Positions 45,065-62,714 of a stretch of 64,000 nt of DNA are shown piece by piece. Below the pieces are notes generated by a model. That model was not told where the DNA came from, ran no database searches, and was given only the letters and a program-made list of their open reading frames with translations. Origin of the DNA: a virus. Made by a program: the position numbers and the translations under genes. Numbering within the stretch: position 1 is the stretch's first letter; each line of letters opens with the position of its first letter. The DNA is taken from positions 49,099-113,098 of the IMG/VR virus record IMGVR_UViG_3300035670_000062; one strand, written 5' to 3'.

Positions 45065-46660
45065 ATGGGTAATAGTAGTGAAATCCAAGACATAATAAGA
45101 CAAGAATATATTCTCTGTGTTAAAGATCCAGGTCATTTTATGAAGAAATACTGTAATATTCAACACCCACAAAGAGGAAGAATACCTTTTCATTTATATC
45201 CATTTCAAGATAAAGTATTACAATTATGGAAAGATAATCCATATTCAGTTATTTTAAAATCAAGACAATTAGGTATATCAACCTTAGCAGCGGGTTATGC
45301 CTTATGGTTAATGTTATTTCATAAAGATAAAAACATACTATGTCTCGCTACGACTCAAGAGACTGCCAAAAACATGGTAACTAAAGTAATGTTTATGTAT
45401 GATAACTTACCTTCATGGTTAAGAGAAAAAGATAAACCACTTGAACAAAATAAATTAACCTTAAAACTTAATAATGGTTCTCAAATAAAAGCTAAATCAT
45501 CAAACGCTGATGCTGCTCGTTCAGAAGCCGTATCTTTACTAATAATAGATGAAGCTGCGTTTATTGAAAATATTGCAGAAACTTGGGCTTCTGCACAACA
45601 AACCTTAGCAACAGGAGGTGGAGCTATTGTTTTATCAACTCCATATGGTACTGGAAATTGGTTTCATCAAACATGGGTTAGAGCTGAAGAAAAATTAAAT
45701 GATTTTCTTCCAATTAAACTTCCATGGTTTGTCCATCCTGAAAGAGATGAAACTTGGAGAAAAAAACAAGATGAATTATTAGGTGATCCTAGGTTAGCGG
45801 CACAAGAATGTGATGCAGTTTTCTCTACATCAGGTGATACAGTATTTTACAATGAATTTATTGAATTTTTTGAAAATAATCATATATTGGAACCAATGGA
45901 AAAAAGGGGAATTGACCATAACTTATGGATATGGGAACCATGTGATTATTCAAAAAGTTATATGGTTGTAGCGGATGTAGCTAGGGGAGATTCAAAAGAT
46001 TATTCTGCATTTCATATAATAGATATTGAAAATAACTCACAAGTGGGTGAGTATAAAGGACAAATAAGTACTAGAGATTTTGGTTATTTATTAGTAGGAA
46101 TAGCAACAGAATATAATAATGCTTTATTAGTTGTTGAAAATGCAAATATAGGATGGGCCACAATTCAAACTATACAAGAAAGAGCATATTCTAACTTATA
46201 TTATTCACCTAAAAGTGGAGACAACACTTATGATTCGTATTTTGACCAATATTCAGATACATCAAGAATGACACCTGGTTTTACTATGAATTCAAGAAAT
46301 AGACCTATGGTGATAGGTAAATTTTTAGAAGCAGTAGGAGATCGAAGTGTAATAATAAGATCAAAAAGACTTATTGAAGAAATGAAAGTATTTGTTTGGA
46401 AAAATGGTAGAGCTGAAGCTCAACCTGGATATAATGATGACTTAGTAATAAGTTTTGGTATTGGATTATTTGTAAGAGACTCAGCACTTCGATTTGGGCA
46501 ACAAAACGTTGATATATCAAGAAACTTACTAAATAGTATAACAGTAACAAAAACACCATATAATGGAGCTTATAACCACAATCAAAACAATGACCCATGG
46601 AAAATAAAAAACCCATACTCAAATGATGATAGTGATAATAATTTAAGATGGCTTCTATAA
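45065..46660 (+). CDS. terL: Terminase large subunit (T4 gp17-like)
   Basis: LYPFQ, KSRQLGIST (Walker A), LIIDEAAF (Walker B), STPYG, DVARG..DYSA and NDDLV motifs. Confidence 0.95.
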   Translation: MGNSSEIQDIIRQEYILCVKDPGHFMKKYCNIQHPQRGRIPFHLYPFQDKVLQLWKDNPYSVILKSRQLGISTLAAGYALWLMLFHKDKNILCLATTQETAKNMVTKVMFMYDNLPSWLREKDKPLEQNKLTLKLNNGSQIKAKSSNADAARSEAVSLLIIDEAAFIENIAETWASAQQTLATGGGAIVLSTPYGTGNWFHQTWVRAEEKLNDFLPIKLPWFVHPERDETWRKKQDELLGDPRLAAQECDAVFSTSGDTVFYNEFIEFFENNHILEPMEKRGIDHNLWIWEPCDYSKSYMVVADVARGDSKDYSAFHIIDIENNSQVGEYKGQISTRDFGYLLVGIATEYNNALLVVENANIGWATIQTIQERAYSNLYYSPKSGDNTYDSYFDQYSDTSRMTPGFTMNSRNRPMVIGKFLEAVGDRSVIIRSKRLIEEMKVFVWKNGRAEAQPGYNDDLVISFGIGLFVRDSALRFGQQNVDISRNLLNSITVTKTPYNGAYNHNQNNDPWKIKNPYSNDDSDNNLRWLL

Positions 46661-46681: not shown

Positions 46682-48553
46682 ATGGCAGACACACAATTAT
46701 TCCCAAGATTGAAAAGATTATTTTCAACAGATGTAATAATAAGAAACATAGGAGGAAACCAACTCCAAATAATGGATATAAATCAGATACAACAAGCTGG
46801 TAATTTACAAACAAATTCCTTAGTAGATAGGTTTAGTAGAATTTATACTACATCACCTACATCACCTAACTCATATTCTTCAAGATTAAATTATTCAACA
46901 TTGAGACCTAGTCTTTATAATGAGTATGATAATATGGATACTGATGCTATTGTATCTTCGGTATTAGATATAATAGCAGATGAATGTACTCTAAAGAATG
47001 ATATGAATGAAGTTATTCAAATTAAAAGTAGTGATGAAAATATTCAACAAATATTATATAATTTATTTTATGATGTTATGAATATTGAATTTTCATTAGG
47101 GTTATGGATAAGAAATATGTGTAAATATGGTGATTTTTTCTTAAAATTAGAAATTGCCGAAAAATTTGGAGTATATAATGTAATACCATATAGCGCATAT
47201 CAAATAGAAAGATTAGAAGGTCAAGATAAACAAAATCCCCATGCTATTAGTTTTAAAGTAATTGAAGAATATTCAACTTATGGAACTCATGGAATATTTA
47301 ATAATTCAAAAGAAACTATCACATTCGATAATTATGAAATGGCTCATTTTAGATTATTGACAGATACTAATTTTTTACCATATGGAAGAAGTTATATTGA
47401 AAACGCTAGAAAATTATATAAACAATATACTCTAATGGAAGATGCAGCTCTTATACATAGAATAGTAAGAGCACCAGAAAAAAGAATATTTTACATAAAT
47501 GTAGGTAACATCCCACCAGCTGAAGTAGAAAATTTCATGCAGAAAACAATTTCTAAAATGAAAAGAACACCTCACGTTGACCCACAAACAGGTGATTATA
47601 ATTTAAAATATAACATGCAAAATATGTTAGAAGATTTTTATGTTCCTGTTAGAGGTAATGATTCATCTACAAAAATTGAAGCATCACCTGCTCTTAATTA
47701 TGATGGGATGGCTGATATTGAATATTTAAGAAATAAATTATTTGCTGCTTTAAAAGTCCCCAAAGCTTTTATGGGATATGGAGAAGACACAAGTGGAAAG
47801 GCAACTTTGGCTGCCCAAGATATTAGATTTGCACGTACTATAGAAAGAATACAAAGAATAGTATTATCTGAATTAAATAAAATAGCATTAATACATTTAT
47901 ATACTCAAGGATATAGAGATGGAAATTTAACAAACTTTGAATTATCATTAACAACTCCATCTATTATTTATGACCAAGAAAGAGTAGCTTTGTTAAAAGA
48001 AAAAGTAGATTTAGCTGGACAAATGATGGAATTAAATTTGTTCCCATCTGATTTCATATATGATAATTTATTTAAACTTAGTGAAGATAAATACGATGAA
48101 TATAGAGACTTAATTAGAGAAGATGCAAAACGTAAATTTAGACTGACCCAAATAGAACAGGAAGGAAATGACCCATTAGAATCAGGTCAATCATATGGTA
48201 CCCCTCATGACTTAGCTTCATTATATGGGACTGGAAGAATAACTAAACCAGGAGAAATTCCAAATGGATATGATGAAAATAAAGAATTAGGAAGACCTAA
48301 AACTAATATGACTGATAGAAATACTCAAAAAGATAATTTTGGTAAAGATAGATTAGGAGCTAAAGCACAAAAAGAAAAAGAACCTCAATCCCAAAAACAA
48401 AAATTCAAAGGTAATTCCCCCCTAGCATTAGAAATGAAAAACATAATTAAAAAATTACCTCAAGCACCAAAATCAGAAAAAAACATTATATTAGAATCAC
48501 TTTCTAATAAAATCAATTTCCTAGATGAATCAAATTTAGAACTAGAAGACTAA
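46682..48553 (+). CDS. Portal protein (T4 gp20-like)
   Basis: MEDAALIHRIVRAPEKRIFYINVGN, EDFYVPVRG, DIEY...KLF.ALKVP and DIRFAR.I.R.Q motifs. Confidence 0.95.
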   Translation: MADTQLFPRLKRLFSTDVIIRNIGGNQLQIMDINQIQQAGNLQTNSLVDRFSRIYTTSPTSPNSYSSRLNYSTLRPSLYNEYDNMDTDAIVSSVLDIIADECTLKNDMNEVIQIKSSDENIQQILYNLFYDVMNIEFSLGLWIRNMCKYGDFFLKLEIAEKFGVYNVIPYSAYQIERLEGQDKQNPHAISFKVIEEYSTYGTHGIFNNSKETITFDNYEMAHFRLLTDTNFLPYGRSYIENARKLYKQYTLMEDAALIHRIVRAPEKRIFYINVGNIPPAEVENFMQKTISKMKRTPHVDPQTGDYNLKYNMQNMLEDFYVPVRGNDSSTKIEASPALNYDGMADIEYLRNKLFAALKVPKAFMGYGEDTSGKATLAAQDIRFARTIERIQRIVLSELNKIALIHLYTQGYRDGNLTNFELSLTTPSIIYDQERVALLKEKVDLAGQMMELNLFPSDFIYDNLFKLSEDKYDEYRDLIREDAKRKFRLTQIEQEGNDPLESGQSYGTPHDLASLYGTGRITKPGEIPNGYDENKELGRPKTNMTDRNTQKDNFGKDRLGAKAQKEKEPQSQKQKFKGNSPLALEMKNIIKKLPQAPKSEKNIILESLSNKINFLDESNLELED

Positions 48554-50059: not shown

Positions 50060-52558
50060 ATGAAAAATACACTTACAGAACAATACAGACTTATTAAAAT
50101 AGGTAAAGGAAATAAAGAAACTTTTTTAAAGGAAGCTAAATCATTATTCCCTAACTTACTTACAAATAGTTCAACATATAATGAAACTGAAAAGATTTTA
50201 AAACAAAAGGGAGTAATATCTGAAAATATTCATAGTTTGAATCCTATTGCATTTCCTACTACTAAAAAAGAATCATATGAAATAGCATTTAGTAAATTCT
50301 TAAAAGAAGCTAAAAAGGAAGAACCTAAAACTGAAACTTACGACAATAAGAATACTAAAAATTCTAATAACTTAATATTCGACCAAATAATGAGAGGATG
50401 TTATGTTGAAGCTAAAGTTGAGAAAAATAAAGACAAGACAATAGATGAAATTAAAGACATTGTTGTTAAAAATTTACAAAAAGATCCTATTTATTATACT
50501 AAAAATGGTGCTTTTGGTGAAGAAGGATTAGGATATGAAACTGAAGTTCCTGGTTTAGGTACTCCAAAAGAGGCTAAAGGTAAGTATAAATCAAGTGGAT
50601 ATGGTGATTTAAAAGAAAATACTACAAGATTATTTTATAGGATTCCTAATGAAATAAAAAATTTAGAAAAATATGGAGTAAAAATTACTATAGACCCTAA
50701 AAATACAGTTTCACCAATTCAAAGAATAGGAGTACCTGTAAATTTAGATGATGAAATATATGATAAAATAGAAGATATTCTATATAGATATAATTTAAAA
50801 CCCAAAAAATATTTTATCACACAAAAAGGCGTAAACGAAAACAAAGACACTGAAATTAAAATAGGAGACATTCTTATTAAAAATGGAAAAAAAGGAAAAG
50901 TTATAAAAGTGATGGATGATATGGTTAATGTTGATTTTGGTAACGGGGATGTTTACGGTATTACTTTAAGTAGAATTAAAGGAAATGAAATAGTAAACGA
51001 AAACAAAGATGCTGAAGTTTATGCTAAGAAAAAAGGTTTTACCACAAAAAAAGGATTAAATGAAAATAATAATTTAAAAGAAGGTAATGATTTTGGTGGA
51101 GCTGGTTTAATAGTTGTGGGTCGTACTCCAATAGATAATGATTTAATAGACCAAGCTGTAGAAGAAAGTGGTTTTTACGGAATATTTAATGCTAGAGAAA
51201 ATTATTGGTTTTTTCCTGAAGGTGAAGAAACAATAGATAGGCTAGAAAATGAATTAGAAACTATTTTTATTAAAAAAGGAATTAATGCTAGATTTGAAGG
51301 TCAATTTAATGAAAATAAAACAAACAATCAACCTAAATTCAAAAAAGGTGACAAAGTAACTTACCTAGGCCATCCAGGTGAAATTACTGCTGTTAATAAA
51401 GAAATGACTGGTGCTATTACATATAATGTTGCTTATAATAAAGGAACAGGTAGAACTAAAGCAACAAACATCTATAACAAAGATGGTGAAATTAAACCTT
51501 TAAATGAATCAAATTCAGAATATTTAGATAAATTATATGATATAATTTTAAAATATGTTAAAGATCCTGACGAAGCAGAACAAGAATTAGATGGATATAT
51601 AAGTCAAGGATGGAGTGGATTTTCAAATATGTTAATGTCTAATCTAAATAAAGATATGGATTTTATATCATTAACCCAACAAGGACATGATAAAGACATT
51701 CAAAGAAGAGAATCTGGATTAAATGAATCATATGGTTCAAATGGTGACTTTGATGGTACTGGTTTAATAGTAGTAGGTCGCACCCAAATAGATAATAATG
51801 AAATTGGAGATGTAATTGAAGATTTAGGTTATTATGGAGTATGGAATTCAAGAGAAGGATATTGGTTTATACAAGAAGATAAACCAACTCTTAGTTATTT
51901 AGAAGCTGATTTAGATGAAGAATTTGCTAAACGAGATATTAATGCTAGATTTGAAGCTCAATTTGGAGAGGATGAAATAGATTACGATGATGAAAATTTC
52001 TCAGACCCCCTAATAGATGGTGAAGAAGATTTATTTGAAAGTAAATGGAGAAAAACACAAAAAGAAAAAATAGTTAAAGAAAATATAAATAAAGAAATTA
52101 CCCAAATTAACAAAGATGCGGAATCAGAAGTTTTAGAAAGTAAATTATCTAAAATAAATGATGCTATTGAAAAAAGGGAATCTAAATTATCTAAAATAAA
52201 TGAAGATGAAGATTTAAAAGGATTAACTGACAATAAAAAAATTAAATCTCTACAAAAGGAAATAAAAACTTTAGAAAAACATAAATCTAAAATCGAGAAA
52301 CAATTAAATAAAGGCTCAAAACAAAACAAACCTAAGGAAATCAATGATGAAATCATAGATGAAACTGAGGGATTGAATTTCGAATATAAAGATTATTTTA
52401 ATTTAAACGAATCGATAGAGGAACAATTATCTTCAACACAAGAATCATTATTTACTTTAATCGAGGATTTATATGATGAATTAGGTAGCATGGATGAAGT
52501 AAAAAAATTAGTTAATTCTGCTTTAAACAACGTCGCTTTAAAATTTGGTGATTATTAA
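50060..52558 (+). CDS. Modular polyprotein-like head-associated protein
   Basis: Many short modules joined at (L/V/F)NE or LKE; duplicated GLIVVGRT..INARFE domain; immediately upstream of the prohead protease. Confidence 0.7.
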   Translation: MKNTLTEQYRLIKIGKGNKETFLKEAKSLFPNLLTNSSTYNETEKILKQKGVISENIHSLNPIAFPTTKKESYEIAFSKFLKEAKKEEPKTETYDNKNTKNSNNLIFDQIMRGCYVEAKVEKNKDKTIDEIKDIVVKNLQKDPIYYTKNGAFGEEGLGYETEVPGLGTPKEAKGKYKSSGYGDLKENTTRLFYRIPNEIKNLEKYGVKITIDPKNTVSPIQRIGVPVNLDDEIYDKIEDILYRYNLKPKKYFITQKGVNENKDTEIKIGDILIKNGKKGKVIKVMDDMVNVDFGNGDVYGITLSRIKGNEIVNENKDAEVYAKKKGFTTKKGLNENNNLKEGNDFGGAGLIVVGRTPIDNDLIDQAVEESGFYGIFNARENYWFFPEGEETIDRLENELETIFIKKGINARFEGQFNENKTNNQPKFKKGDKVTYLGHPGEITAVNKEMTGAITYNVAYNKGTGRTKATNIYNKDGEIKPLNESNSEYLDKLYDIILKYVKDPDEAEQELDGYISQGWSGFSNMLMSNLNKDMDFISLTQQGHDKDIQRRESGLNESYGSNGDFDGTGLIVVGRTQIDNNEIGDVIEDLGYYGVWNSREGYWFIQEDKPTLSYLEADLDEEFAKRDINARFEAQFGEDEIDYDDENFSDPLIDGEEDLFESKWRKTQKEKIVKENINKEITQINKDAESEVLESKLSKINDAIEKRESKLSKINEDEDLKGLTDNKKIKSLQKEIKTLEKHKSKIEKQLNKGSKQNKPKEINDEIIDETEGLNFEYKDYFNLNESIEEQLSSTQESLFTLIEDLYDELGSMDEVKKLVNSALNNVALKFGDY

Positions 52559-52578: not shown

Positions 52579-53211
52579 ATGAATAGAACATTATTAATAG
52601 AAACTAATATATTAGTACCTTCATTATTAAAAGAAGAAAATTCTAATAATAATGGAAATATATTCATTGAAGGTATATTAGCTACCTGTGAAGTTGAAAA
52701 TGGAAATGGTAGATATTACCCTAGAGAATTATGGGAGAGAGAAATTAAAATCTTCGAAAATAAAATAAAAGCAGGTTCAACTGAATGCGCAGGGGAATTA
52801 GATCACCCTCAATCAGAAATAATCAATCTAAATAATGTATCTCATGCTATTAGAAAAGTATGGTGGAATGGAGATAAAATTATGGGATTAATAGAAATAT
52901 TCTCAGATCAGGGTCCTAAAGGAACTACAGCAGGAAGAATAGCAGGAGCATTAATTAGAAATAATCTATCAGTAGGTGTAAGTAGTAGAGGGATGGGTTC
53001 ATTAACTGAAGTAAATGGAGTAATGGAAGTTCAAGATGATTTTTCATTATTATGTTGGGATTTAGTATCAAACCCATCAAACCCAAACTCATGGATGAAG
53101 GAATCAAAAGGTTCATTAAATGAATCTAGATTATCTTCAATAGATAAGTATTCTAAAGTAAATTCTATTATAACAGAAATATTATGTTCTAATGGAATGT
53201 GTAAAATTTAA
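52579..53211 (+). CDS. Prohead core protease (T4 gp21-like)
   Basis: NGNGRYYP, GELDHP, VSH, GVSSRGMGS and WDLVSNPS motifs. Confidence 0.95.
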   Translation: MNRTLLIETNILVPSLLKEENSNNNGNIFIEGILATCEVENGNGRYYPRELWEREIKIFENKIKAGSTECAGELDHPQSEIINLNNVSHAIRKVWWNGDKIMGLIEIFSDQGPKGTTAGRIAGALIRNNLSVGVSSRGMGSLTEVNGVMEVQDDFSLLCWDLVSNPSNPNSWMKESKGSLNESRLSSIDKYSKVNSIITEILCSNGMCKI

Positions 53212-53370: not shown

Positions 53371-54336
53371 ATGGCAAAAAGAGATCTATTCAAAGAAGCT
53401 ATTGCAGAAGCTAAAGCAGTAAAAGAAGTCGCGATTGCAAATGCAAAAATAGCATTAGAAGAAGCTTTCACTCCACATTTAAAATCAATTTTATCACAAC
53501 GTATCCAAGAAATGGAATATGAAGAAGATGAAGAAGAAACAATGAATATGGAAGAAAGTGAAGAAACATTAGACTTATCAGAAATTTTAAAAGAAATTGA
53601 GGATGATGAAGATATTATTGAATCTGAAGAAGAGGAAGATAAAGACATCGCTGAAATTTTAAAAGAAATTGAGGATGAAGTTGATAATGAAATGGAAGAA
53701 GAAGATGAAGAAGATGAAGAAGAAGAAGAATCATTAAATATCGAAGACATGACAGATGAAGATTTAAAAGACTTTATCGAATCAGTAATTAAAGACATGG
53801 TAGCAGCTGGTGAATTAGAACCAAATACTGAAATGGAAGATGATGAAATGGAAGATATGGATGATGAAATTGACTTAGAAATTGAAGATGATGAAACTGA
53901 AGATGAAGAAATTGAAGAAAACAACATCGATTCAGGAGCAGCTCCAAAATCATTTATTAAACAAAACCCTGACTATGTTATGGAGTTAAGAAATGAATTA
54001 AGAGAAGCAAACAAATCATTAATAATATTACGTAGTAAGTTAAATGAAGTTAATTTATTAAATTCAAAATTACTTTATACTAATAAAATTTTCCAATCTA
54101 ATACATTATCAACAAAAGAAAAAACAAGTATATTAGAATCATTTGATAAAGCAACAACAGTAAAAGAAGCAAAATTGGTATTTGAAACTTTGAACGAGGG
54201 TTTAAAAAGTAAAAAACAACCAATTAAAGAATCTTTAAGTATGGCTTCAAAATCAATGGGTTCACAACAAAAACCAAACCAAATAATTAACATAGATCCT
54301 CAAGTCCAAAGATGGAAAAAACTTGCGGGACTATAA
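53371..54336 (+). CDS. Prohead core scaffolding protein
   Basis: Extremely acidic centre with a coiled-coil C-terminus; between protease and major capsid. Confidence 0.8.
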   Translation: MAKRDLFKEAIAEAKAVKEVAIANAKIALEEAFTPHLKSILSQRIQEMEYEEDEEETMNMEESEETLDLSEILKEIEDDEDIIESEEEEDKDIAEILKEIEDEVDNEMEEEDEEDEEEEESLNIEDMTDEDLKDFIESVIKDMVAAGELEPNTEMEDDEMEDMDDEIDLEIEDDETEDEEIEENNIDSGAAPKSFIKQNPDYVMELRNELREANKSLIILRSKLNEVNLLNSKLLYTNKIFQSNTLSTKEKTSILESFDKATTVKEAKLVFETLNEGLKSKKQPIKESLSMASKSMGSQQKPNQIINIDPQVQRWKKLAGL

Positions 54337-54363: not shown

Positions 54364-56016
54364 ATGTCACAATTAAATTCATTATTAGAAAGTGCATCTC
54401 AAAGTTTCAAAAATTTGAACAACGATGCAGCTAGACTAGCTAAAAAATGGTCAGCAACAGGTCTATTAGAAGGCCTAAGTAACGAGAACGAAAGAAACAG
54501 TATGTCTATGTTACTTGAAAACCAAGCTAAACAATTAGTATTGGAATCAAACAGTACAAACCAAGGTGGAGCTACCTTTTCAGGAGGTGGTCAAGGTGAA
54601 CAATGGAATGGAATTGCATTACCATTAGTGAGAAAAGTATTTGGACAAATATCTTCCAAAGAATTTGTTTCATTACAAACAATGAACATGCCTTCAGGTC
54701 TTGTATTTTACTTGGATTTCCAGTATGGACAATCAAAAAGACCAAATTTTGGACCTTCAGGAGACGTATTTGCTGAAACTTCATCATTATATGGTAACAC
54801 AAACCCAGGTGCTGCTGCAAACCCAGCAGGAGGTATGTATGGTGCTGGAAGATTTGGTTATTCAATTAATCAATTTAAAGCTACTGTAACTTCAAGTAAC
54901 GTAACTACAAGTTCTGCAGATTGGGTAGATGTTGATTATGATGCTGCTTTATCAGCTTCAATTGCTGCTGGTGATTTGACAAAAATTACTATCCCAATTT
55001 CTGGTTCATTAACTAGACCTGATTTGAAAGGTGTAAGAGCATTTAGTGTGTCTGCTTCTACTGCAAATCCTGCATTCTTATTACCTGCTTACACTTCAAC
55101 TGATGGAACTAACATTACGTTTGTATTTGCTTCAGGTTCAGGTGTAGCTCAAGGTGGTGTAGACGTATACTACAACCAACAACCAGTTGATAACAACAGA
55201 GGTGATTTTGAAGATGTAACAAACGGTGGTTTCCCTAATGCTCAATCTCAAACAGAACTTTCAATCCCATCAATTGATGTGAAAATGAAATCTGAAGCTA
55301 TTGTTGCTAAAACAAGAAAATTAAAAGCACAATGGACACCTGAGTTTGCTCAAGATTTGAATGCATACCAAGCATTAGACGCAGAAGCAGAATTAACTTC
55401 AATCATGAGTGAGTATATTTCAATGGAAATTGACTTAGAAATCTTAGACATGTTGATTCAAGATGCTTCAGGTTTCGATGAATATTGGAATGCTTCAAAC
55501 AACCAACAATTGAATGCTGCTAAAACAGGATACGATAACTTAGGTTTCTATAACACTCAAGGTCAATGGTTCCAAACATTAGGTACTAAATTACAAAAAG
55601 TAAGCAACAAAATCCATACTAAGACTATGAGAGGAGGAGCTAATTTCATGGTAATTAGCCCAACTGTAGCTACAATCATTGAATCAATTCCTGGATTTGC
55701 TTCAAACGCTGATGGTGATGCTGCTAAAAACAAATTTGCATTCGGTATCCAGAAAATGGGTCAAATGAATAGCAGATATGATGTATACAAAAACCCTTAC
55801 ATGTCTGAAAACGTGATTTTAATGGGTTATAGAGGTAGCCAATTCTTGGAAGCTGGTGCGGTATTTGCTCCATATGTTCCATTAATCCAAACACCTTTAG
55901 TATACGATCCAGATACCTTCACTCCAAGAAAAGGTATGTTAACAAGATATGCTAAGAAAATGATAAGACCAGAATATTATGGACGTGTATTCGTTTCTAA
56001 TACTGAGTTAGTTTAA
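54364..56016 (+). CDS. Major capsid protein (T4 gp23-like)
   Basis: KW...LLEG, LLENQ, LPLVRKVF, Q.M..PSGLVF, AKTRKLKAQWT.E.AQDL and APYVPL..F.P.KG..TRY motifs. Confidence 0.97.
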   Translation: MSQLNSLLESASQSFKNLNNDAARLAKKWSATGLLEGLSNENERNSMSMLLENQAKQLVLESNSTNQGGATFSGGGQGEQWNGIALPLVRKVFGQISSKEFVSLQTMNMPSGLVFYLDFQYGQSKRPNFGPSGDVFAETSSLYGNTNPGAAANPAGGMYGAGRFGYSINQFKATVTSSNVTTSSADWVDVDYDAALSASIAAGDLTKITIPISGSLTRPDLKGVRAFSVSASTANPAFLLPAYTSTDGTNITFVFASGSGVAQGGVDVYYNQQPVDNNRGDFEDVTNGGFPNAQSQTELSIPSIDVKMKSEAIVAKTRKLKAQWTPEFAQDLNAYQALDAEAELTSIMSEYISMEIDLEILDMLIQDASGFDEYWNASNNQQLNAAKTGYDNLGFYNTQGQWFQTLGTKLQKVSNKIHTKTMRGGANFMVISPTVATIIESIPGFASNADGDAAKNKFAFGIQKMGQMNSRYDVYKNPYMSENVILMGYRGSQFLEAGAVFAPYVPLIQTPLVYDPDTFTPRKGMLTRYAKKMIRPEYYGRVFVSNTELV

Positions 56017-58263: not shown

Positions 58264-58644
58264 ATGGCTGCAGGAAGATATAGTTTCATAATAGAACAAG
58301 GCTCAACATTAAATCTTGAATTACAATATAAAGACGAAAACGGCGTAGCTATAAATTTGTCAGATTATGGTGGTAAAATGCAATTACGTTCATCAGTTGA
58401 CAGTAATGATATAATATTAGAACTTAGTAGTTCCTTGCAACTTGATGGAACAGGTTTGAATTTTAGTGGCTCTAATGGTCAAACCTCTCCCTCGTCAGGT
58501 TCAATAGGTATTTACATATCTGCTGCTTCATCTTCATTATTAAATTTTGATTCAGCATTGTATGATCTTGAAATTTTTTCAGGTAGTTTTGTAAGTAGAA
58601 TACTAGAAGGTCAAATTAAATTATCTAAAGAAATAACAAGATAA
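58264..58644 (+). CDS. Virion structural/adaptor protein (tail-fibre associated)
   Basis: IEQGST..., NLSDY..KMQLR and YDLEI..RILEG...LSKEITR pattern. Confidence 0.65.
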   Translation: MAAGRYSFIIEQGSTLNLELQYKDENGVAINLSDYGGKMQLRSSVDSNDIILELSSSLQLDGTGLNFSGSNGQTSPSSGSIGIYISAASSSLLNFDSALYDLEIFSGSFVSRILEGQIKLSKEITR

Positions 58645-61600
58645 TGTCTAAATGCATTACTCCCATTCATATAATTCCAAATAATAATCAAGTAGTATTA
58701 CTTGATAATAATAAAAGTATAACAATAATAGACAATAATTGTTGTACTGAAGTAATAGTCACTCAACCTGTAACTGAAGTAATTCAAGTCCTGACTGGAC
58801 CCATGGGTAAATTCCCAACTGAAGGTCCTTATGGATTTACAGGTTCATTTGACATATCTGGTTCATTTACGACAACAGGAAGTATATATGGAGATATAAT
58901 ATATTCTCCGTATTTTACAGGTTCATTTTTTGGTAATGGAGTAGGATTATTTTCTGGTTCATTTAGTGGTTCTGTGTCTTCAAATTTACAAGAAATAACA
59001 GACAATGGATCAACTACTACTAACGCTATAACGTCGTCAGGTTTATTAACTAATGACATTAATGTAAATGGAAATGTAGTAGTATCAGGTTCACTTTTAG
59101 TTAGTGGTTCGAATACTTTTAAAAATATAGGTCCTGCTCAATTTACAGGTTCTACAGACATAACAGGAAGTTTAAGTGTAAATGGAGTAGACTATGAGTT
59201 TACTTCTGCTTCATTAGATCAAAGAATTATAAATAATTCGTCTTCAATTACTTTTTTAAGTAGCAGTTACTTAAATTCAAGTGCTTCATTTAATACTCGT
59301 ATATTAAACAACAGTTCTAGTATAAGTTTACTGTCAGGAAGCTTTTTAAATTTTAGTGGTAGTTACGTTACACATAGCTCGAGTTTTAACACAAGAATAT
59401 TAAACAATAGCTCAAGTATTTCATTATTATCTGGTAGTTATTTAACAGACTCTGCATCATTTAATACTAGAATATTAAACAACAGTTCTAGTATATCTAC
59501 TTTATCTAGTAGTTTTTTGTCATTTTCTTCAAGTTATCTTGTAGACAGTTCTAGTTTTAACATTCGTATAGTAAACAACAGTTCTAGTATTAATATATTG
59601 TCAGGTAGTTATCTTACTGATTCTGCATCATTTAATACACGTATATTAAATAATAGTTCTAGCATTTCTTCCTTGTCAGGAAGTTTTGTAGGATTTAGTG
59701 GTAGTTATGTAGCTGACTCAGCTTCATTTAATACACGCATATTAAATAACAGTTCAAGTATCAATATACTGTCGGGAAGTTATTTAACTGATTCTGCATC
59801 ATTTAATACACGCACATTAAATAATAGTTCTAGTATTTCTACTTTATCTAGTAGTTTTATTGGATTTAGTGGTAGTTATGTAAATGACAGTAGTTCTTTT
59901 AATGTTCGAATAATAAACTTAGAAAATTTTAGTTCTTCATTAGATGCTACTTTTGCAACTGACACTGAATTAAATGCTGCAACTGCCTCATTAAGTAGTT
60001 CTATTTCATATTTAAGTAGTAGTTATTTAAATTCAAGTGCTTCATTTGACATAAGAATATTAAACAACAGTTCAAGCATAAACTTACTGTCAGGTAGTTT
60101 TATTGGATTTAGTGGTAGTTATGTGAATGACAGTTCAAGCTTCAACACAAGAATATTAAACAATAGCTCAAGTATAACAGCGGTTTCCTCAAGCCTATCT
60201 ATATTCAGTGGAAGTTATGTTTTAGACTCGGCTTCGTTTGATACACGTATATTAAACAACAGTTCAAGTATTGACATATTGTCAAGTAGTTTTGAAACAT
60301 TTACTCAAATATACAATACAGGTTCATTTACAGGTTCATTTACAGGTTCATTGTTAGGTACTGCTTCATGGGCTATAAATGCTCAAACAGCATCTTACGT
60401 TTTACCTCTAAATCAAGACGTAATAATAAATGGTTCTCTTAATGTAACAGCATCTTTTACAGCAAGTGGATTAATATATCCCTCAGCAGATAATGGTGAA
60501 GAATCATTTATACAAACTGATGGAAATGGCAACTTATCTCTACAGTATGTAAAAACAATTTACGAAGAGATTATAAATGGTGAATCAACTCAACTCGTAA
60601 AAGGAACACCAGTATACGTTTCAGGTTCACAAGGGGCAGCTTCTATTGTGTTTCGTGCAGATCCAACTAATCCATCTAAAATACCTGCTGTTTATATATC
60701 TGCAGACACATTAGCTGCAGGTGAATCTGGTCGTGGAATTGCTTTAGGACTGATTAAAGGAGTTGACACAACAGGCTTCCCAGCAGGTACTGAAATATAC
60801 CTAGCATCTGGAGGTGGATGGACATCTACTCGCCCAACAGGTTCAACAGCTGTTCAAGTATTAGGATACGTAACAAAAGAAGGAAATGGAGGTCAAGGTG
60901 TTGTATTTAATAGGGGCTTAGCTAATTTACCAAATCTAAACTCAGGATCAGTTTGGGTAGGAAATCAAGACAGTACACCAGTTGCTGTTCCTACATCAAG
61001 TTTAAGTGTTGCTAGTTCGTCGTTTTCTGTAAACGCTCAAACAGCATCATTTGCACCAAATTACACTTTAACATCATCATTTAATGTTTTTACTAGTTCA
61101 TATAATACTGGATCATTTACAGGTAGCTTCATTGGAACGGCTGATTTACCAGATTTAACACAAGGTGTAGGTATTGATGTATTTACTTACGACGGTAGTA
61201 CAACTGCCACAGTAGCCGTATCTGGAGCAAATGCTTTAAATGCCGATACCATAACTAAATGGACTGGTGATGCATTTGCAAATACCAACATTAAAGACAA
61301 TGGTAGTCAAGTTGAAATTAGTTCTTCATTCTATGTGACTGGATCTAATATAGCAATTGAAACAGATCTTTTTACTGTAGGAGGTATTCCTGGAATTACT
61401 GCATTAAATATTGATTTAGGCGAGCTTTCTATATATGATTCATCAGGAAATCTTTCAATTCAAGCTCCAAATAGAATTTTATACGACGCAACAGAAGTAG
61501 ATTCTTTAGACTGGAACAACCGTCAATTACTTAAATCAGACGGAACAACAGTATCGTTTGATTGGGAAAATGGTCAATTTGTTAGTGATTTAAGTGTAAC

Positions 61601-62714
61601 TGGATCAGTATTTGTGACGGGCTCACAAATTTCAATTAATGCAGACACACTTGACTTCACTCTTATTGGTTATGCAACTCCTTTAATAACGCTTGATGAG
61701 TCTAACGGAGCACAGCTATATAATACTAGCGGTCAATATAAAATAAGCGCAGATGCTTCACACTTAGTAGATGATAGTGGATTGCTATCAGTAGAGTGGA
61801 CTAATCGTCAACTGTATGATTCTTCTGGAGCAACAGTTGTGGTAGATTGGAATCAGAATCTTTTATCTGACAATTCTACTGGCGCAGCTTCAGTAGATTG
61901 GGAACAACGTCAACTACTCAAATCAGACGGTTCAACAGTATCAGTAGATTGGGAAAATGGGATATTCTCAGGATCATTCTCTGGTTCATTCCAAGGAGAT
62001 GGCTCTCAACTAACTGGAATAGTATCTTCGAAATGGTCAGGTTCTAACCCTATAACTAGAGAAAGTGACGTTGAAATTACTGGATCATTAACAGTAACAC
62101 AAGGTATAACAGGCAGTTTACAAGGAACTGCATCATTTGCTATATCATCCTCAACTACTGTTTCTGCATCTTTTACACAAACTGCATCATATGCATTCAC
62201 AGCAGTTACTGCTTCATATGCATTGAATGGAGGTATAGATACAGGATCATTACTAGTAACAGCGTCCGTTGCCTTAAACACAATAACATTTACTAAAGGA
62301 GATGGCTCAACTTTCCCAATCACAGTAGATACGGGAAGTGGTGGTGGAGGTGGGAGTGGATTAACAGCTCCTATTACAATTGCATGGGATGGACAGGGTG
62401 GTTTTTTATCAACAGGATTCACAAGATATTTTGTTTCTCCATATAATTGTACAATTACGGGTTGGTCAATTATATCAGAAGGAACTAACCCTACGTGTAC
62501 GATTGATATTTGGAAAACTTCATATGGGACATCCTTACCTACATCTGCAAATTCAATTACTGGATCTTCTTCACCATCATTAAGTACTGGAAATGTCATA
62601 CGATCTTCAACATTAACTGGATGGACAACATCAATATCAGCAGGAGATATTCTTGGATTCAATATTAATGCTGTATCGAATGCTTTGACAATCAAAATAA
62701 ATTTAGAACTTTAA
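58644..62714 (+). CDS. Tail fibre-like protein with Ser-rich repeats
   Basis: 1356 aa; TGSF motifs, 25/32-aa tandem repeats and DW..RQL repeats. Confidence 0.75.
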   Translation: MSKCITPIHIIPNNNQVVLLDNNKSITIIDNNCCTEVIVTQPVTEVIQVLTGPMGKFPTEGPYGFTGSFDISGSFTTTGSIYGDIIYSPYFTGSFFGNGVGLFSGSFSGSVSSNLQEITDNGSTTTNAITSSGLLTNDINVNGNVVVSGSLLVSGSNTFKNIGPAQFTGSTDITGSLSVNGVDYEFTSASLDQRIINNSSSITFLSSSYLNSSASFNTRILNNSSSISLLSGSFLNFSGSYVTHSSSFNTRILNNSSSISLLSGSYLTDSASFNTRILNNSSSISTLSSSFLSFSSSYLVDSSSFNIRIVNNSSSINILSGSYLTDSASFNTRILNNSSSISSLSGSFVGFSGSYVADSASFNTRILNNSSSINILSGSYLTDSASFNTRTLNNSSSISTLSSSFIGFSGSYVNDSSSFNVRIINLENFSSSLDATFATDTELNAATASLSSSISYLSSSYLNSSASFDIRILNNSSSINLLSGSFIGFSGSYVNDSSSFNTRILNNSSSITAVSSSLSIFSGSYVLDSASFDTRILNNSSSIDILSSSFETFTQIYNTGSFTGSFTGSLLGTASWAINAQTASYVLPLNQDVIINGSLNVTASFTASGLIYPSADNGEESFIQTDGNGNLSLQYVKTIYEEIINGESTQLVKGTPVYVSGSQGAASIVFRADPTNPSKIPAVYISADTLAAGESGRGIALGLIKGVDTTGFPAGTEIYLASGGGWTSTRPTGSTAVQVLGYVTKEGNGGQGVVFNRGLANLPNLNSGSVWVGNQDSTPVAVPTSSLSVASSSFSVNAQTASFAPNYTLTSSFNVFTSSYNTGSFTGSFIGTADLPDLTQGVGIDVFTYDGSTTATVAVSGANALNADTITKWTGDAFANTNIKDNGSQVEISSSFYVTGSNIAIETDLFTVGGIPGITALNIDLGELSIYDSSGNLSIQAPNRILYDATEVDSLDWNNRQLLKSDGTTVSFDWENGQFVSDLSVTGSVFVTGSQISINADTLDFTLIGYATPLITLDESNGAQLYNTSGQYKISADASHLVDDSGLLSVEWTNRQLYDSSGATVVVDWNQNLLSDNSTGAASVDWEQRQLLKSDGSTVSVDWENGIFSGSFSGSFQGDGSQLTGIVSSKWSGSNPITRESDVEITGSLTVTQGITGSLQGTASFAISSSTTVSASFTQTASYAFTAVTASYALNGGIDTGSLLVTASVALNTITFTKGDGSTFPITVDTGSGGGGGSGLTAPITIAWDGQGGFLSTGFTRYFVSPYNCTITGWSIISEGTNPTCTIDIWKTSYGTSLPTSANSITGSSSPSLSTGNVIRSSTLTGWTTSISAGDILGFNINAVSNALTIKINLEL
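59205..60290 (+). repeat. Intragenic tandem repeats (75/96-bp units; SASFNTRILNNSSSI...)
   Basis: About 12 R(I/T)xN cores counted in the translation. Confidence 0.9.

What the first reader, a model, noticed from the sequence alone, without database searches (positions are those of the whole stretch)
50831..51009. In-frame domain insertion flanked by a 17-bp direct repeat encoding the putative cleavage site
Seen: GTAAACGAAAACAAAGA (V-N-E-N-K-D) occurs at 50831 and 50993, exactly 162 bp apart, bracketing an SH3/KOW-like module. Inference: the duplication-type insertion seen for whole genes also works at domain scale, using the cleavage-site codons as target, so each new module arrives with a cut site on both sides.
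Basis: partly seen in the sequence, partly recalled or inferred. Interest (0 to 1): 0.72.

Follow-up and report, generated by a model that had tools for sequence, protein, structure and literature searches.

The report
Repeat-flanked module in phage polyprotein
In an uncultured marine T4-like phage, a 54-residue SH3-like module sits inside a head polyprotein between two identical 17-base copies of a likely protease-site sequence; the same module with the same flanks occurs in other phages, so it behaves as a swappable in-frame cassette, although a true target-site duplication is not shown.

Summary
GTAAACGAAAACAAAGA occurs exactly twice, at 50831 and 50993, in frame and 162 bp apart. It brackets a confidently modelled small beta-barrel module.

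The host gene (50060-52558, 832 aa) lies between a T4-type portal and an S77 prohead protease. It is a chain of small modules joined at [LIVF]-x-Glu sites. Each module has its closest relative in a different protein (65-100% identity), so the gene is a mosaic.

- For it: a 60-residue block, VNENKD-module-VNENKD, is 100% identical in three proteins with unrelated flanks. VNENKD occurs nowhere else in 267 proteins. Four nearly identical gene pairs differ by whole modules, three of them cut exactly at x-x-Glu sites and the fourth flanked by a repeated Glu-rich linker.
- Against it: no allele with a single VNENKD was found. The repeat travels with the cassette rather than copying a local target. 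Both joints here lie outside the repeats, and the right one truncates a neighbouring module. In 22 other loci with this module the flanks share only 5-10 nt.

Most likely the cassette moved by short-homology recombination, not by duplicative insertion. Cleavage itself is inferred. This scan has noted the same theme on at least six other genomes. I found no publication of it.

The parts
50060..52558 (+). 832-aa modular polyprotein gene with a conserved N-terminal core and a variable chain of small modules
   Evidence: ORF. 941 homologues share only the N-terminal ~200 aa and have variable module chains. No Pfam family passes its threshold.
50060..50617 (+). Conserved N-terminal core (aa 1-186), ending GYGDLKE|N
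   Evidence: 122 homologues cover it; the best is 65% identical. Contigs of other runs diverge from the window at 50611-50620.
50618..50839 (+). 'N-ext' module (aa 187-260). Its last 8 residues, ITQKGVNE (50816-50839), are the tail of a 'link' module
   Evidence: 87% identical to P0005. It natively ends KKYYINE| in P0005 and KKYFLNE| in P0269/P0270. P0123 reads KKKGFTTQKGVNE|NKDPEI at a link-to-SH3 junction.
50831..50847 (+). Direct repeat, copy 1 (VNE|NKD)
50840..51001 (+). SH3-like small beta-barrel module 'SH3a' (aa 261-314)
   Evidence: AF2 pLDDT 87.8. Foldseek best hits are PWWP, Tudor, KOW and SH3. Identity is 100% in P0199, 98% in P0200 and 96% in P0123. It is found in 78 cluster representatives.
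50993..51009 (+). Direct repeat, copy 2 (VNE|NKD)
51002..51064 (+). Truncated 'link' module (aa 315-335): NKD plus the last 18 aa of a module that is 57-73 aa elsewhere
   Evidence: 95% identical to the tail of the P0006 module. Full-length forms occur in P0004, P0005, P0006, P0047, P0123 and L001.
51065..51082 (+). Six-residue spacer NNNLKE between two candidate cut sites
   Evidence: Contigs of runs X4 and X8 are 100% identical to the window from 51075 onwards and unrelated before it.
51083..51313 (+). Module Xa (aa 342-418)
   Evidence: 87% identical to P0093 and 54% to the gene's own Xb.
51314..51508 (+). Second SH3-like module, SH3b (aa 419-483)
   Evidence: 81% identical to modules in 65 other proteins. 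A module of this type is present in L075 and absent in L074, exactly between VSE| and LSE|.
51509..51727 (+). Module 'mid' (aa 484-556), ending GLNE|S
   Evidence: No relative among the proteins collected. A contig of run X4 is identical up to 51730 and then continues into another module, EDEETYEFNV.
51728..51979 (+). Module Xb (aa 557-640), a paralogue of Xa
   Evidence: 92% identical to P0002.
52579..53211 (+). Prohead protease (Peptidase_S77, T4 gp21 type), the presumed processing enzyme
   Evidence: PF03420 E=1.4e-24; phrog_207 E=8.8e-50.
46682..48553 (+). T4-type portal protein (gp20 family)
   Evidence: PF07230 E=3.3e-67.
54364..56016 (+). Major capsid protein (gp23 family) with L-x-E motifs in its N-terminal propeptide
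   Evidence: PF07068 E=1.4e-71, matching from aa 79. SLLE, GLLE, MLLE and LVLE occur within the first 62 aa.

Best explanation
The gene encodes a head polyprotein: a conserved N-terminal core followed by small independent modules, each ending in a [LIVF]-x-Glu site of the kind that T4-type (S77) prohead proteases cut.

The 17-bp repeat marks the two ends of one mobile module cassette, VNE|NKD - SH3-like barrel - VNE|NKD. The repeat belongs to the cassette and travels with it.

The cassette came to this gene by short-homology (illegitimate or copy-choice) recombination between related polyprotein genes of co-infecting phages. The left joint lies in the tail of the preceding module (KKYF / ITQKGVNE). 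The right joint lies inside a 'link' module at a K-D / E-D codon pair, and it truncates that module.

Selection then keeps only in-frame products whose modules remain separable by the protease. This is why surviving indels between close relatives end at the cut sites.

Shown: the repeat, the mosaic structure, the shared 60-aa block, the precise module indels and the truncated neighbour. Inferred: cleavage at these sites, packaging in the head and the recombination pathway.
For: The repeat is real and improbable by chance, and codon identity given the peptide has p=0.017.

The genomic setting is portal, then this gene, then S77 protease, then a gp23-type capsid protein with LxE sites in its propeptide.

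The gene is a mosaic: the best relative of each module is a different protein, at 65-100% identity.

A block of exactly 60 identical residues, from V258 to D317, is shared with P0199 and P0268 (one substitution in P0200), with unrelated sequence on both sides. VNENKD occurs in 267 collected proteins only beside this module subtype.

The modules upstream of it natively end in IKE (P0047, P0003) or LNE/INE (P0270, P0005), so the VNE came with the cassette. P0123 shows the link-tail to SH3 junction TTQKGVNE|NKDPEI at 94% identity over window residues 249-316. The link module is full length in five other proteins and one viral locus and cut to 18 aa here.

Precise module indels occur between near-identical genes:
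- P0004/P0006: 99.6% identical, 187 aa, LNE|..LNE|.
- L073/L075: 189 nt, MNE|..LNE|.
- L074/L075: an SH3b-type module, VSE|..LSE|.
- L002/L003: 171 nt, flanked by a repeated Glu-rich linker.

Contigs of other runs are 100% identical to the window up to module borders (51075 and 51730) and then diverge.

There are no inverted repeats, promoters or terminators at the module ends.
Against: No DNA of P0199, P0200, P0268 or P0123 could be fetched, so it is unknown whether their flanks share the window's codons. No cleavage, packaging or recombination intermediate has been observed. The history of the two joints rests on few comparators: three for the N-ext end and six for the link module. The 17-nt identity could still be a 2% coincidence on top of a shared peptide. 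In more distant subfamilies some module replacements do not end at x-x-Glu motifs.
Confidence: 0.55

Rival explanations
1. The recipient gene had a single VNENKD cleavage-site sequence. The module inserted there by a duplicative mechanism that copied the 17-bp target to both sides, either a target-site duplication or integration of a circular cassette by one crossover at that site.
For: An exact 17-bp in-frame direct repeat brackets one folded module. The same module has VNENKD on both sides in a second context. Mini-circle shuffling between short repeats is documented for whole genes in T4-type phages (PMC2839356). Another note on this genome reports repeat-flanked gene cassettes.
Against: No empty-site allele was found. 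The implied empty site...KKYFITQKGVNENKDAEVYAKKKGFTTKKGLNE, would hold two link-module tails in tandem with no module between them, which is an odd ancestor. The flank sequence is the cassette's own: it is the same in different recipients whose upstream modules natively end in IKE, LNE or INE. In 22 other loci with the module the flanks share only 5-10 nt. There are no terminal inverted repeats, and I saw no recombinase-like hit in the eleven neighbouring ORFs that were scanned.
Confidence: 0.13
2. Coincidence of two independently formed junctions. The left copy is the link tail (GVNE) plus the module's own start (NKD). The right copy is the module's own end (IVNE) plus the start of a link module (N-K-D), later shortened by an internal deletion. 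Identical peptides reflect protease-site preference, and identical codons are chance.
For: IVNE is intrinsic to the module's C-terminus in most relatives. NKD is the native start of this module subtype (P0123, P0199). P0047 shows SH3a followed by a link module that starts NDKD, and a deletion between two K-D/E-D codon pairs would give IVNE|NKD|AEV. Asn-Lys after the cut is common in the family.
Against: Codon identity given the peptide has p=0.017, with the minor codon AAC used twice in both copies. VNENKD is confined to this cassette in 267 proteins and recurs on both sides in an unrelated context. No other locus reaches more than 10 shared nt, even where both flanks encode VNE.
Confidence: 0.17
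3. Remnant of a tandem array or of gene conversion. The module was once tandemly repeated, so each copy was preceded by the same junction, or the two junctions were homogenised by conversion. The array later collapsed to one copy that kept both junctions.
For: Similarity extends beyond the 17-mer (24/27), as if the right flank began another module copy: NKD-TEI against NKD-AEV. P0003 has IKGNEIVNE|NK twice, 52 aa apart. Tandem in-frame repeats are common elsewhere in the window.
Against: No tandem SH3a array was seen in any of about 300 proteins or 30 loci. DAEV is native to the link module (P0006, P0123), so the extended similarity may simply be the microhomology used for the joint.
Confidence: 0.1

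Closest known systems
T4 internal proteins IPI-III, Alt, gp67 and gp68: capsid-targeted proteins processed by the gp21 (S77) prohead protease, with polymorphic IP loci (PMC3012670, PMC9026906, PMC5694885; Repoila et al. 1994 as cited there, not read)
   Same: The gene lies in the portal-to-protease block where T4 has genes 67 and 68. An S77 protease is next door. Candidate cut sites are hydrophobic-x-Glu, as for gp21, which cuts after Glu. The cargo is variable and exchanged between related phages.
   Different: Here many unrelated modules are strung into one 832-aa chain with internal sites, rather than one leader per gene. The unit of exchange is a 50-190-aa domain inside a reading frame. 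Cleavage and packaging are untested.
PeSL cassettes and mini-circles of T4-type phages (Arbiol et al. 2010, PMC2839356; PMC4122927)
   Same: Short repeated sequences bracket swappable units, and recombination between them explains insertion, deletion and replacement between close relatives.
   Different: PeSLs are intergenic promoter-terminator elements that move whole genes. Here the joints are coding and in frame, with no promoter, terminator or stem-loop. No circles are known.
gp38 adhesins of T-even phages: hypervariable segments separated by conserved glycine-rich motifs (Trojet et al. 2011, PMC3157838)
   Same: Within one T4-type phage gene, short conserved motifs delimit interchangeable segments, giving in-frame modular exchange.
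   Different: The glycine-rich motifs form the structural core of one domain. Here the joints separate autonomous modules and look like protease sites.
Polyvalent proteins of phages and conjugative elements (Iyer et al. 2017, PMC5512222)
   Same: Multi-domain chains of 2-15 unrelated domains, with highly variable architectures, are deployed by phages at the start of infection.
   Different: Those are mostly large enzymatic domains with recognisable families and often their own protease domains. Here the modules are 50-85 aa, match no Pfam family, and would be processed by the separate head-maturation protease.

Membership tests
Substrates of T4-type (S77) prohead protease (IP/Alt/gp67/gp68-like head proteins) | The phage encodes an S77 gp21-type protease together with a T4-type portal and gp23-type capsid protein | tested here: met
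   PF03420 E=1.4e-24, PF07230 E=3.3e-67, PF07068 E=1.4e-71
Substrates of T4-type (S77) prohead protease (IP/Alt/gp67/gp68-like head proteins) | Hydrophobic-x-Glu motifs at the borders of the released pieces | tested here: met
   Eight [LIVF]NE motifs plus DLKE and NLKE; six of the eight, together with DLKE and NLKE, fall on borders that homologues define independently through module gain, loss and identity breaks. The motif is not rare in this AT-rich proteome, so the border coincidence carries the weight.
Substrates of T4-type (S77) prohead protease (IP/Alt/gp67/gp68-like head proteins) | The protein is actually cleaved and present in proheads or virions | not testable with these tools
   Needs virion proteomics, and no cultured relative exists: tblastn against 50,697 phage records gave no match.
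Insertion with target-site duplication (transposon-like or duplicative insertion) | An empty-site allele with a single copy of the repeat | tested here: not met
   None found among 941+83+36 homologues, 78 module-bearing representatives, or contigs of four other runs. Absence from these sets is not proof.
Insertion with target-site duplication (transposon-like or duplicative insertion) | The flanking repeat derives from the recipient and so differs between insertion sites | tested here: not met
   The same VNENKD flanks the module in an unrelated context, and the native ends of the upstream modules differ.
Insertion with target-site duplication (transposon-like or duplicative insertion) | Terminal inverted repeats or an associated recombinase | tested here: not met
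   No inverted repeat in 50780-51060. I saw no recombinase-like hit in the eleven neighbouring ORFs that were scanned against Pfam or PHROGs.
PeSL-type regulatory cassette shuffling | Units are flanked by a promoter plus a stem-loop terminator | tested here: not met
   Promoter-like sites are not enriched (13 against 17 expected), and there is one weak terminator-like site on the opposite strand, away from the repeat.
PeSL-type regulatory cassette shuffling | Circular intermediates are formed by recombination between flanking repeats | not testable with these tools
   Needs inverse PCR or raw reads. Only assembled contigs were available, and they showed no joints.
SH3-like small beta-barrel fold (SH3/Tudor/PWWP/KOW) | A small barrel of about five strands and 50-60 residues with structural matches to members | tested here: inconclusive
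   The model has pLDDT 87.8 and four strands of three or more residues plus short bridges. The best Foldseek hits are PWWP, RfaH-KOW, Tudor and SH3 with probability 0.9-0.99, but E-values of 0.1 or more and TM 0.5-0.6.

The most novel reading that the evidence does not exclude
In these phages the codons of the prohead-protease sites serve a second purpose as dedicated in-frame recombination joints. Modules flanked by the same joint would be excised and re-inserted, perhaps through circular or copy-choice intermediates, so that any new cargo domain arrives already separable by the protease. This would be a domain-scale counterpart of PeSL or integron cassettes for loading variable proteins into the capsid.
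Probability: 0.2. Interest if true: 0.78.

Novelty: new variant of a known kind. Interest (0 to 1): 0.58.

Why it matters
T4-type phages are known to inject variable internal proteins that counter host defences, and to shuffle whole genes at short regulatory repeats. This locus shows the same plasticity one level down. Autonomous 50-190-residue modules are swapped in frame inside a single head polyprotein, with borders at likely protease sites.

If cleavage is confirmed, it gives a simple rule for how a phage can add or drop capsid cargo without evolving a new leader or promoter. It would also suggest a natural design for loading foreign proteins into T4-type heads.

The family is large (941 hits in metagenomes), gave no match in GenBank phage records, and matches no Pfam family.

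Tried and rejected
- A viral-contig scan with P0003 found nothing.
- The exact 17-mer in IMG/VR gave 54 single hits and no contig with two copies. I did not check them for frame or homology, so I treat them as uninformative.
- tblastn against GenBank phages gave no match.
- Read laying on four other runs showed no joint skipping the 162 bp. Only assembled contigs were available, so rare deletion variants could not be seen, and parts without cover are not evidence.
- The module is not found elsewhere in the window.
- Pfam, PHROGs and the ESM Atlas gave no function for the N-terminal core or the modules.
- I rejected a tandem-duplication origin for Xa and Xb: each is closer to a module in another protein (87% and 92%) than to the other (54%).
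- I rejected using [LIVF]NE density alone as evidence of cleavage sites, because the motif is common in this AT-rich proteome.
Full report
**1. Observation**

GTAAACGAAAACAAAGA occurs exactly at 50831-50847 and 50993-51009 on the + strand. It occurs nowhere else in the window or in the whole 113-kb virus record, even with two mismatches allowed. Shuffles expect 0.03 matches to this pattern. A Markov null expects 0.07 close exact repeats of 17 nt or more in the whole window, against 19 seen, all in frame.

Both copies read VNENKD in the frame of the 832-aa ORF 50060-52558. From the window's codon usage, the chance that a second VNENK(D) uses the same codons is 0.017. Both copies use the minor Asn codon AAC twice, while five of the six other [LIVF]NE sites of the gene use AAT. 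Similarity runs on for ten more bases, giving 24 of 27 matches with three transitions.

The 54 residues between the cut positions (50840-51001) fold with pLDDT 87.8 into a small beta-barrel. The nearest solved folds are PWWP, Tudor, RfaH-KOW and SH3, though only at E-values of 0.1 or more.

**2. Setting**

The window is 27.7% G+C and belongs to an uncultured T4-like phage. The local gene order is:
- large terminase, 45065-46660;
- gp20-type portal, 46682-48553;
- two small ORFs;
- this gene, 50060-52558;
- S77 prohead protease, 52579-53211;
- an acidic scaffold-like ORF;
- gp23-type capsid protein, 54364-56016.

The capsid protein has SLLE, GLLE, MLLE and LVLE in the 62 residues before the Pfam match starts. 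This fits the rule that T4 gp21 and its relatives cut after Glu in a short hydrophobic-x-Glu motif (PMC5694885 and PMC9026906).

The polyprotein splits at DLKE|N, GVNE|N, IVNE|N, GLNE|N, NLKE|G, QFNE|N, PLNE|S and GLNE|S. The pieces are:
- a conserved core (aa 1-186);
- N-ext (187-260);
- SH3a (261-314);
- a 21-aa piece (315-335);
- NNNLKE (336-341);
- Xa (342-418);
- SH3b (419-483);
- 'mid' (484-556);
- Xb (557-640);
- a coiled-coil-like tail.

The motif alone is common in this proteome. What counts is that homologues place their module borders at the same points.

**3. The gene is a mosaic**

A metagenome protein search gave 941 homologues of 470-1000 aa that share only the N-terminal core. 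The best relative of each piece is a different protein:

| Piece | Best identity | Protein |
|---|---|---|
| Core | 65% | P0002, P0003 |
| N-ext | 87% | P0005 |
| SH3a | 100% | P0199 |
| 21-aa piece | 95% | P0006 |
| Xa | 87% | P0093 |
| SH3b | 81% | many |
| Xb | 92% | P0002 |
| Tail | 45-54% | several |

Contigs of other sequencing runs are 100% identical to the window over whole modules and then diverge at the borders. In runs X4 and X8, identity starts at 51075, 8 nt before LKE|G, and X4 has a different SH3-like module upstream. In X4, identity ends at 51730, 3 nt after LNE|, and the contig continues into the EDEETYEFNV module known from P0002 and P0003. Several contigs leave the window at 50611-50620, at DLKE|N.

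**4. Module gain and loss between close relatives**

- P0004 and P0006 are 99.6% identical except for 187 aa lying exactly between FLNE|NK and DLNE|SK.
- L073 and L075 (about 94% nt identity) differ by 189 nt between DMNE| and NLNE|, sharing only AATGAAG at the two ends.
- L074 and L075 differ by one SH3b-type module between VSE| and LSE|.
- L002 and L003 differ by a 171-nt SH3-like module flanked by an imperfect 24-nt repeat encoding EE(N/D)(I/M)GL(A/E)E.

**5. The SH3a cassette itself**

An exhaustive search of 1.84 billion representatives found the module in 78 clusters, in proteins of 55-1728 aa and at all positions. These include proteins with other N-terminal leaders.

In P0199, P0200 and P0268 the module is 98-100% identical to the window's. 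It is again flanked by VNE|NKD on both sides: LIPSLVNE|NKDTEI ... IVNE|NKDTDLKIY. With P0199 and P0268 the identical block runs exactly from V258 to D317 (60 aa; P0200 differs at one residue), and the sequence outside it is unrelated.

The module upstream in P0199 natively ends PSLIKE| (P0047) or PSIKE| (P0003). The module downstream natively starts TKDTDL (P0093, P0123). Among 267 collected proteins, VNENKD occurs only beside this module subtype. The repeat is therefore part of the cassette and is not a copy of a local target.

**6. The two joints in this gene**

N-ext natively ends KKYYINE| (P0005) or KKYFLNE| (P0269, P0270). The window instead reads KKYF-ITQKGVNE|. This is the tail of the 'link' module as seen in P0123 (KKKGFTTQKGVNE|NKDPEI), which is 94% identical over window residues 249-316.

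On the right, NKD is followed by AEVYAKKKGFTTKKGLNE. These are the last 18 residues of a link module that is 57-73 aa long in P0004, P0005, P0006, P0047, P0123 and L001.

Both joints thus lie outside the repeats, at short similarities: AAAAAA..TTTTA.C on the left and AAAGAY-RCTGAA-RTT on the right. The right joint destroyed a neighbouring module. A simple 'empty site' ancestor would have carried two link tails in tandem, which is implausible.

**7. Long flank repeats are not general**

In 22 other distinct loci with this module, the longest word shared by the left and right junction regions is 5-10 nt, even where both encode VNE. There are no inverted repeats at the ends and no promoter or terminator signals.

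**8. Reading**

The best explanation is a cassette that carries its own cut-site repeat and is moved by short-homology recombination between polyprotein genes. Selection then keeps products whose modules stay separable.

How the cassette acquired identical ends is open. The possibilities are an earlier circle-type event, collapse of a tandem array, or gene conversion.

The duplicative-insertion model for this site is not excluded but lacks its key evidence. Coincidence remains possible at roughly one in six.

**9. Comparison with known systems**

The closest known systems are:
- T4 internal proteins and core proteins processed by gp21;
- PeSL-mediated gene shuffling (PMC2839356);
- gp38 glycine-rich-motif-delimited segment exchange (PMC3157838);
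- polyvalent proteins (PMC5512222).

In five literature searches, two of them aimed at this question, I found no published account of domain shuffling at prohead-protease sites. That library is incomplete.

This scan has already noted the same theme in another gene of this genome and on at least six other genomes. Those notes are leads, not independent support.

**10. Limits**

Only assembled contigs could be laid on the window. Cleavage, packaging and function of the modules are all inferred.

Noticed in passing
window 51002-51082: Two probable debris peptides lie between candidate cut sites: a 21-aa remnant of a 57-73-aa 'link' module, and the hexapeptide NNNLKE. Both look like scars of recombination rather than functional modules.
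   Followed up: partly
window 51083-51313 and 51728-51979: The two copies of the ~77-aa GxGLIVVGRT...INARFE domain are only 54% identical to each other. One is 87% identical and the other 92% identical to copies in other phages' proteins, so they look like separate acquisitions rather than a local duplication. No family or fold was assigned.
   Followed up: partly
window 51075 and 51730 (contigs of run X4): A relative in a freshwater-labelled metagenome has the N-core at about 96% nt identity. Xa, SH3b and 'mid' are at 100%, but a different SH3-like module (..WVKAVDIRGIKE|) precedes Xa and an extra EDEETYEFNV module follows GLNE|S. This is population-level module polymorphism at the cut sites.
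   Followed up: partly
L002:2969-4561 vs L003:1077-2540; L073, L074, L075: Other leader proteins that carry the same SH3-like module show precise one-module indels between 93-97% identical genes. L002 and L003 also swap their C-terminal modules.
   Followed up: yes
window 52141-52203: A 21-nt exact tandem repeat with a 42-nt period encodes ESKLSKIN(D/E) in the coiled-coil-like tail of the polyprotein.
   Followed up: no
window 59300-60250 (ORF 58644-62714, 1356 aa): A dense set of in-frame exact repeats of 17-27 nt, mostly spaced at 171 nt or its multiples (342 nt), indicates a tandem ~57-aa repeat domain in a very large ORF downstream of the capsid genes.
   Followed up: no
window 53519-53705: In-frame exact repeats of 17-26 nt encode EILKEIEDE and acidic runs in the scaffold-like ORF 53371-54336.
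   Followed up: no
P0002 (596 aa homologue): It carries an internal second copy of the C-terminal half of the conserved N-core (..LYYVKDGQFGVKGIGYTTEHPGLGTPKEAKGKYKSSGYGDIDKKFLNE), so even the 'conserved' core behaves as a module ending in LNE|.
   Followed up: no
P0123 (334 aa, 1052-nt contig): After link, SH3a and further modules, the protein ends in an Ala/Glu/Lys-rich tail ..EEKKSEEQAAAGLGALFG. JGI named it 'ribosomal protein L12'. It may be a chimeric contig or a stalk-protein-like tail module.
   Followed up: no
P0003 residues 191-298: A second case of a repeat-bracketed module: IKGNEIVNE|NK occurs at the end of SH3a and again 52 aa later, at the end of an unrelated helical module.
   Followed up: partly
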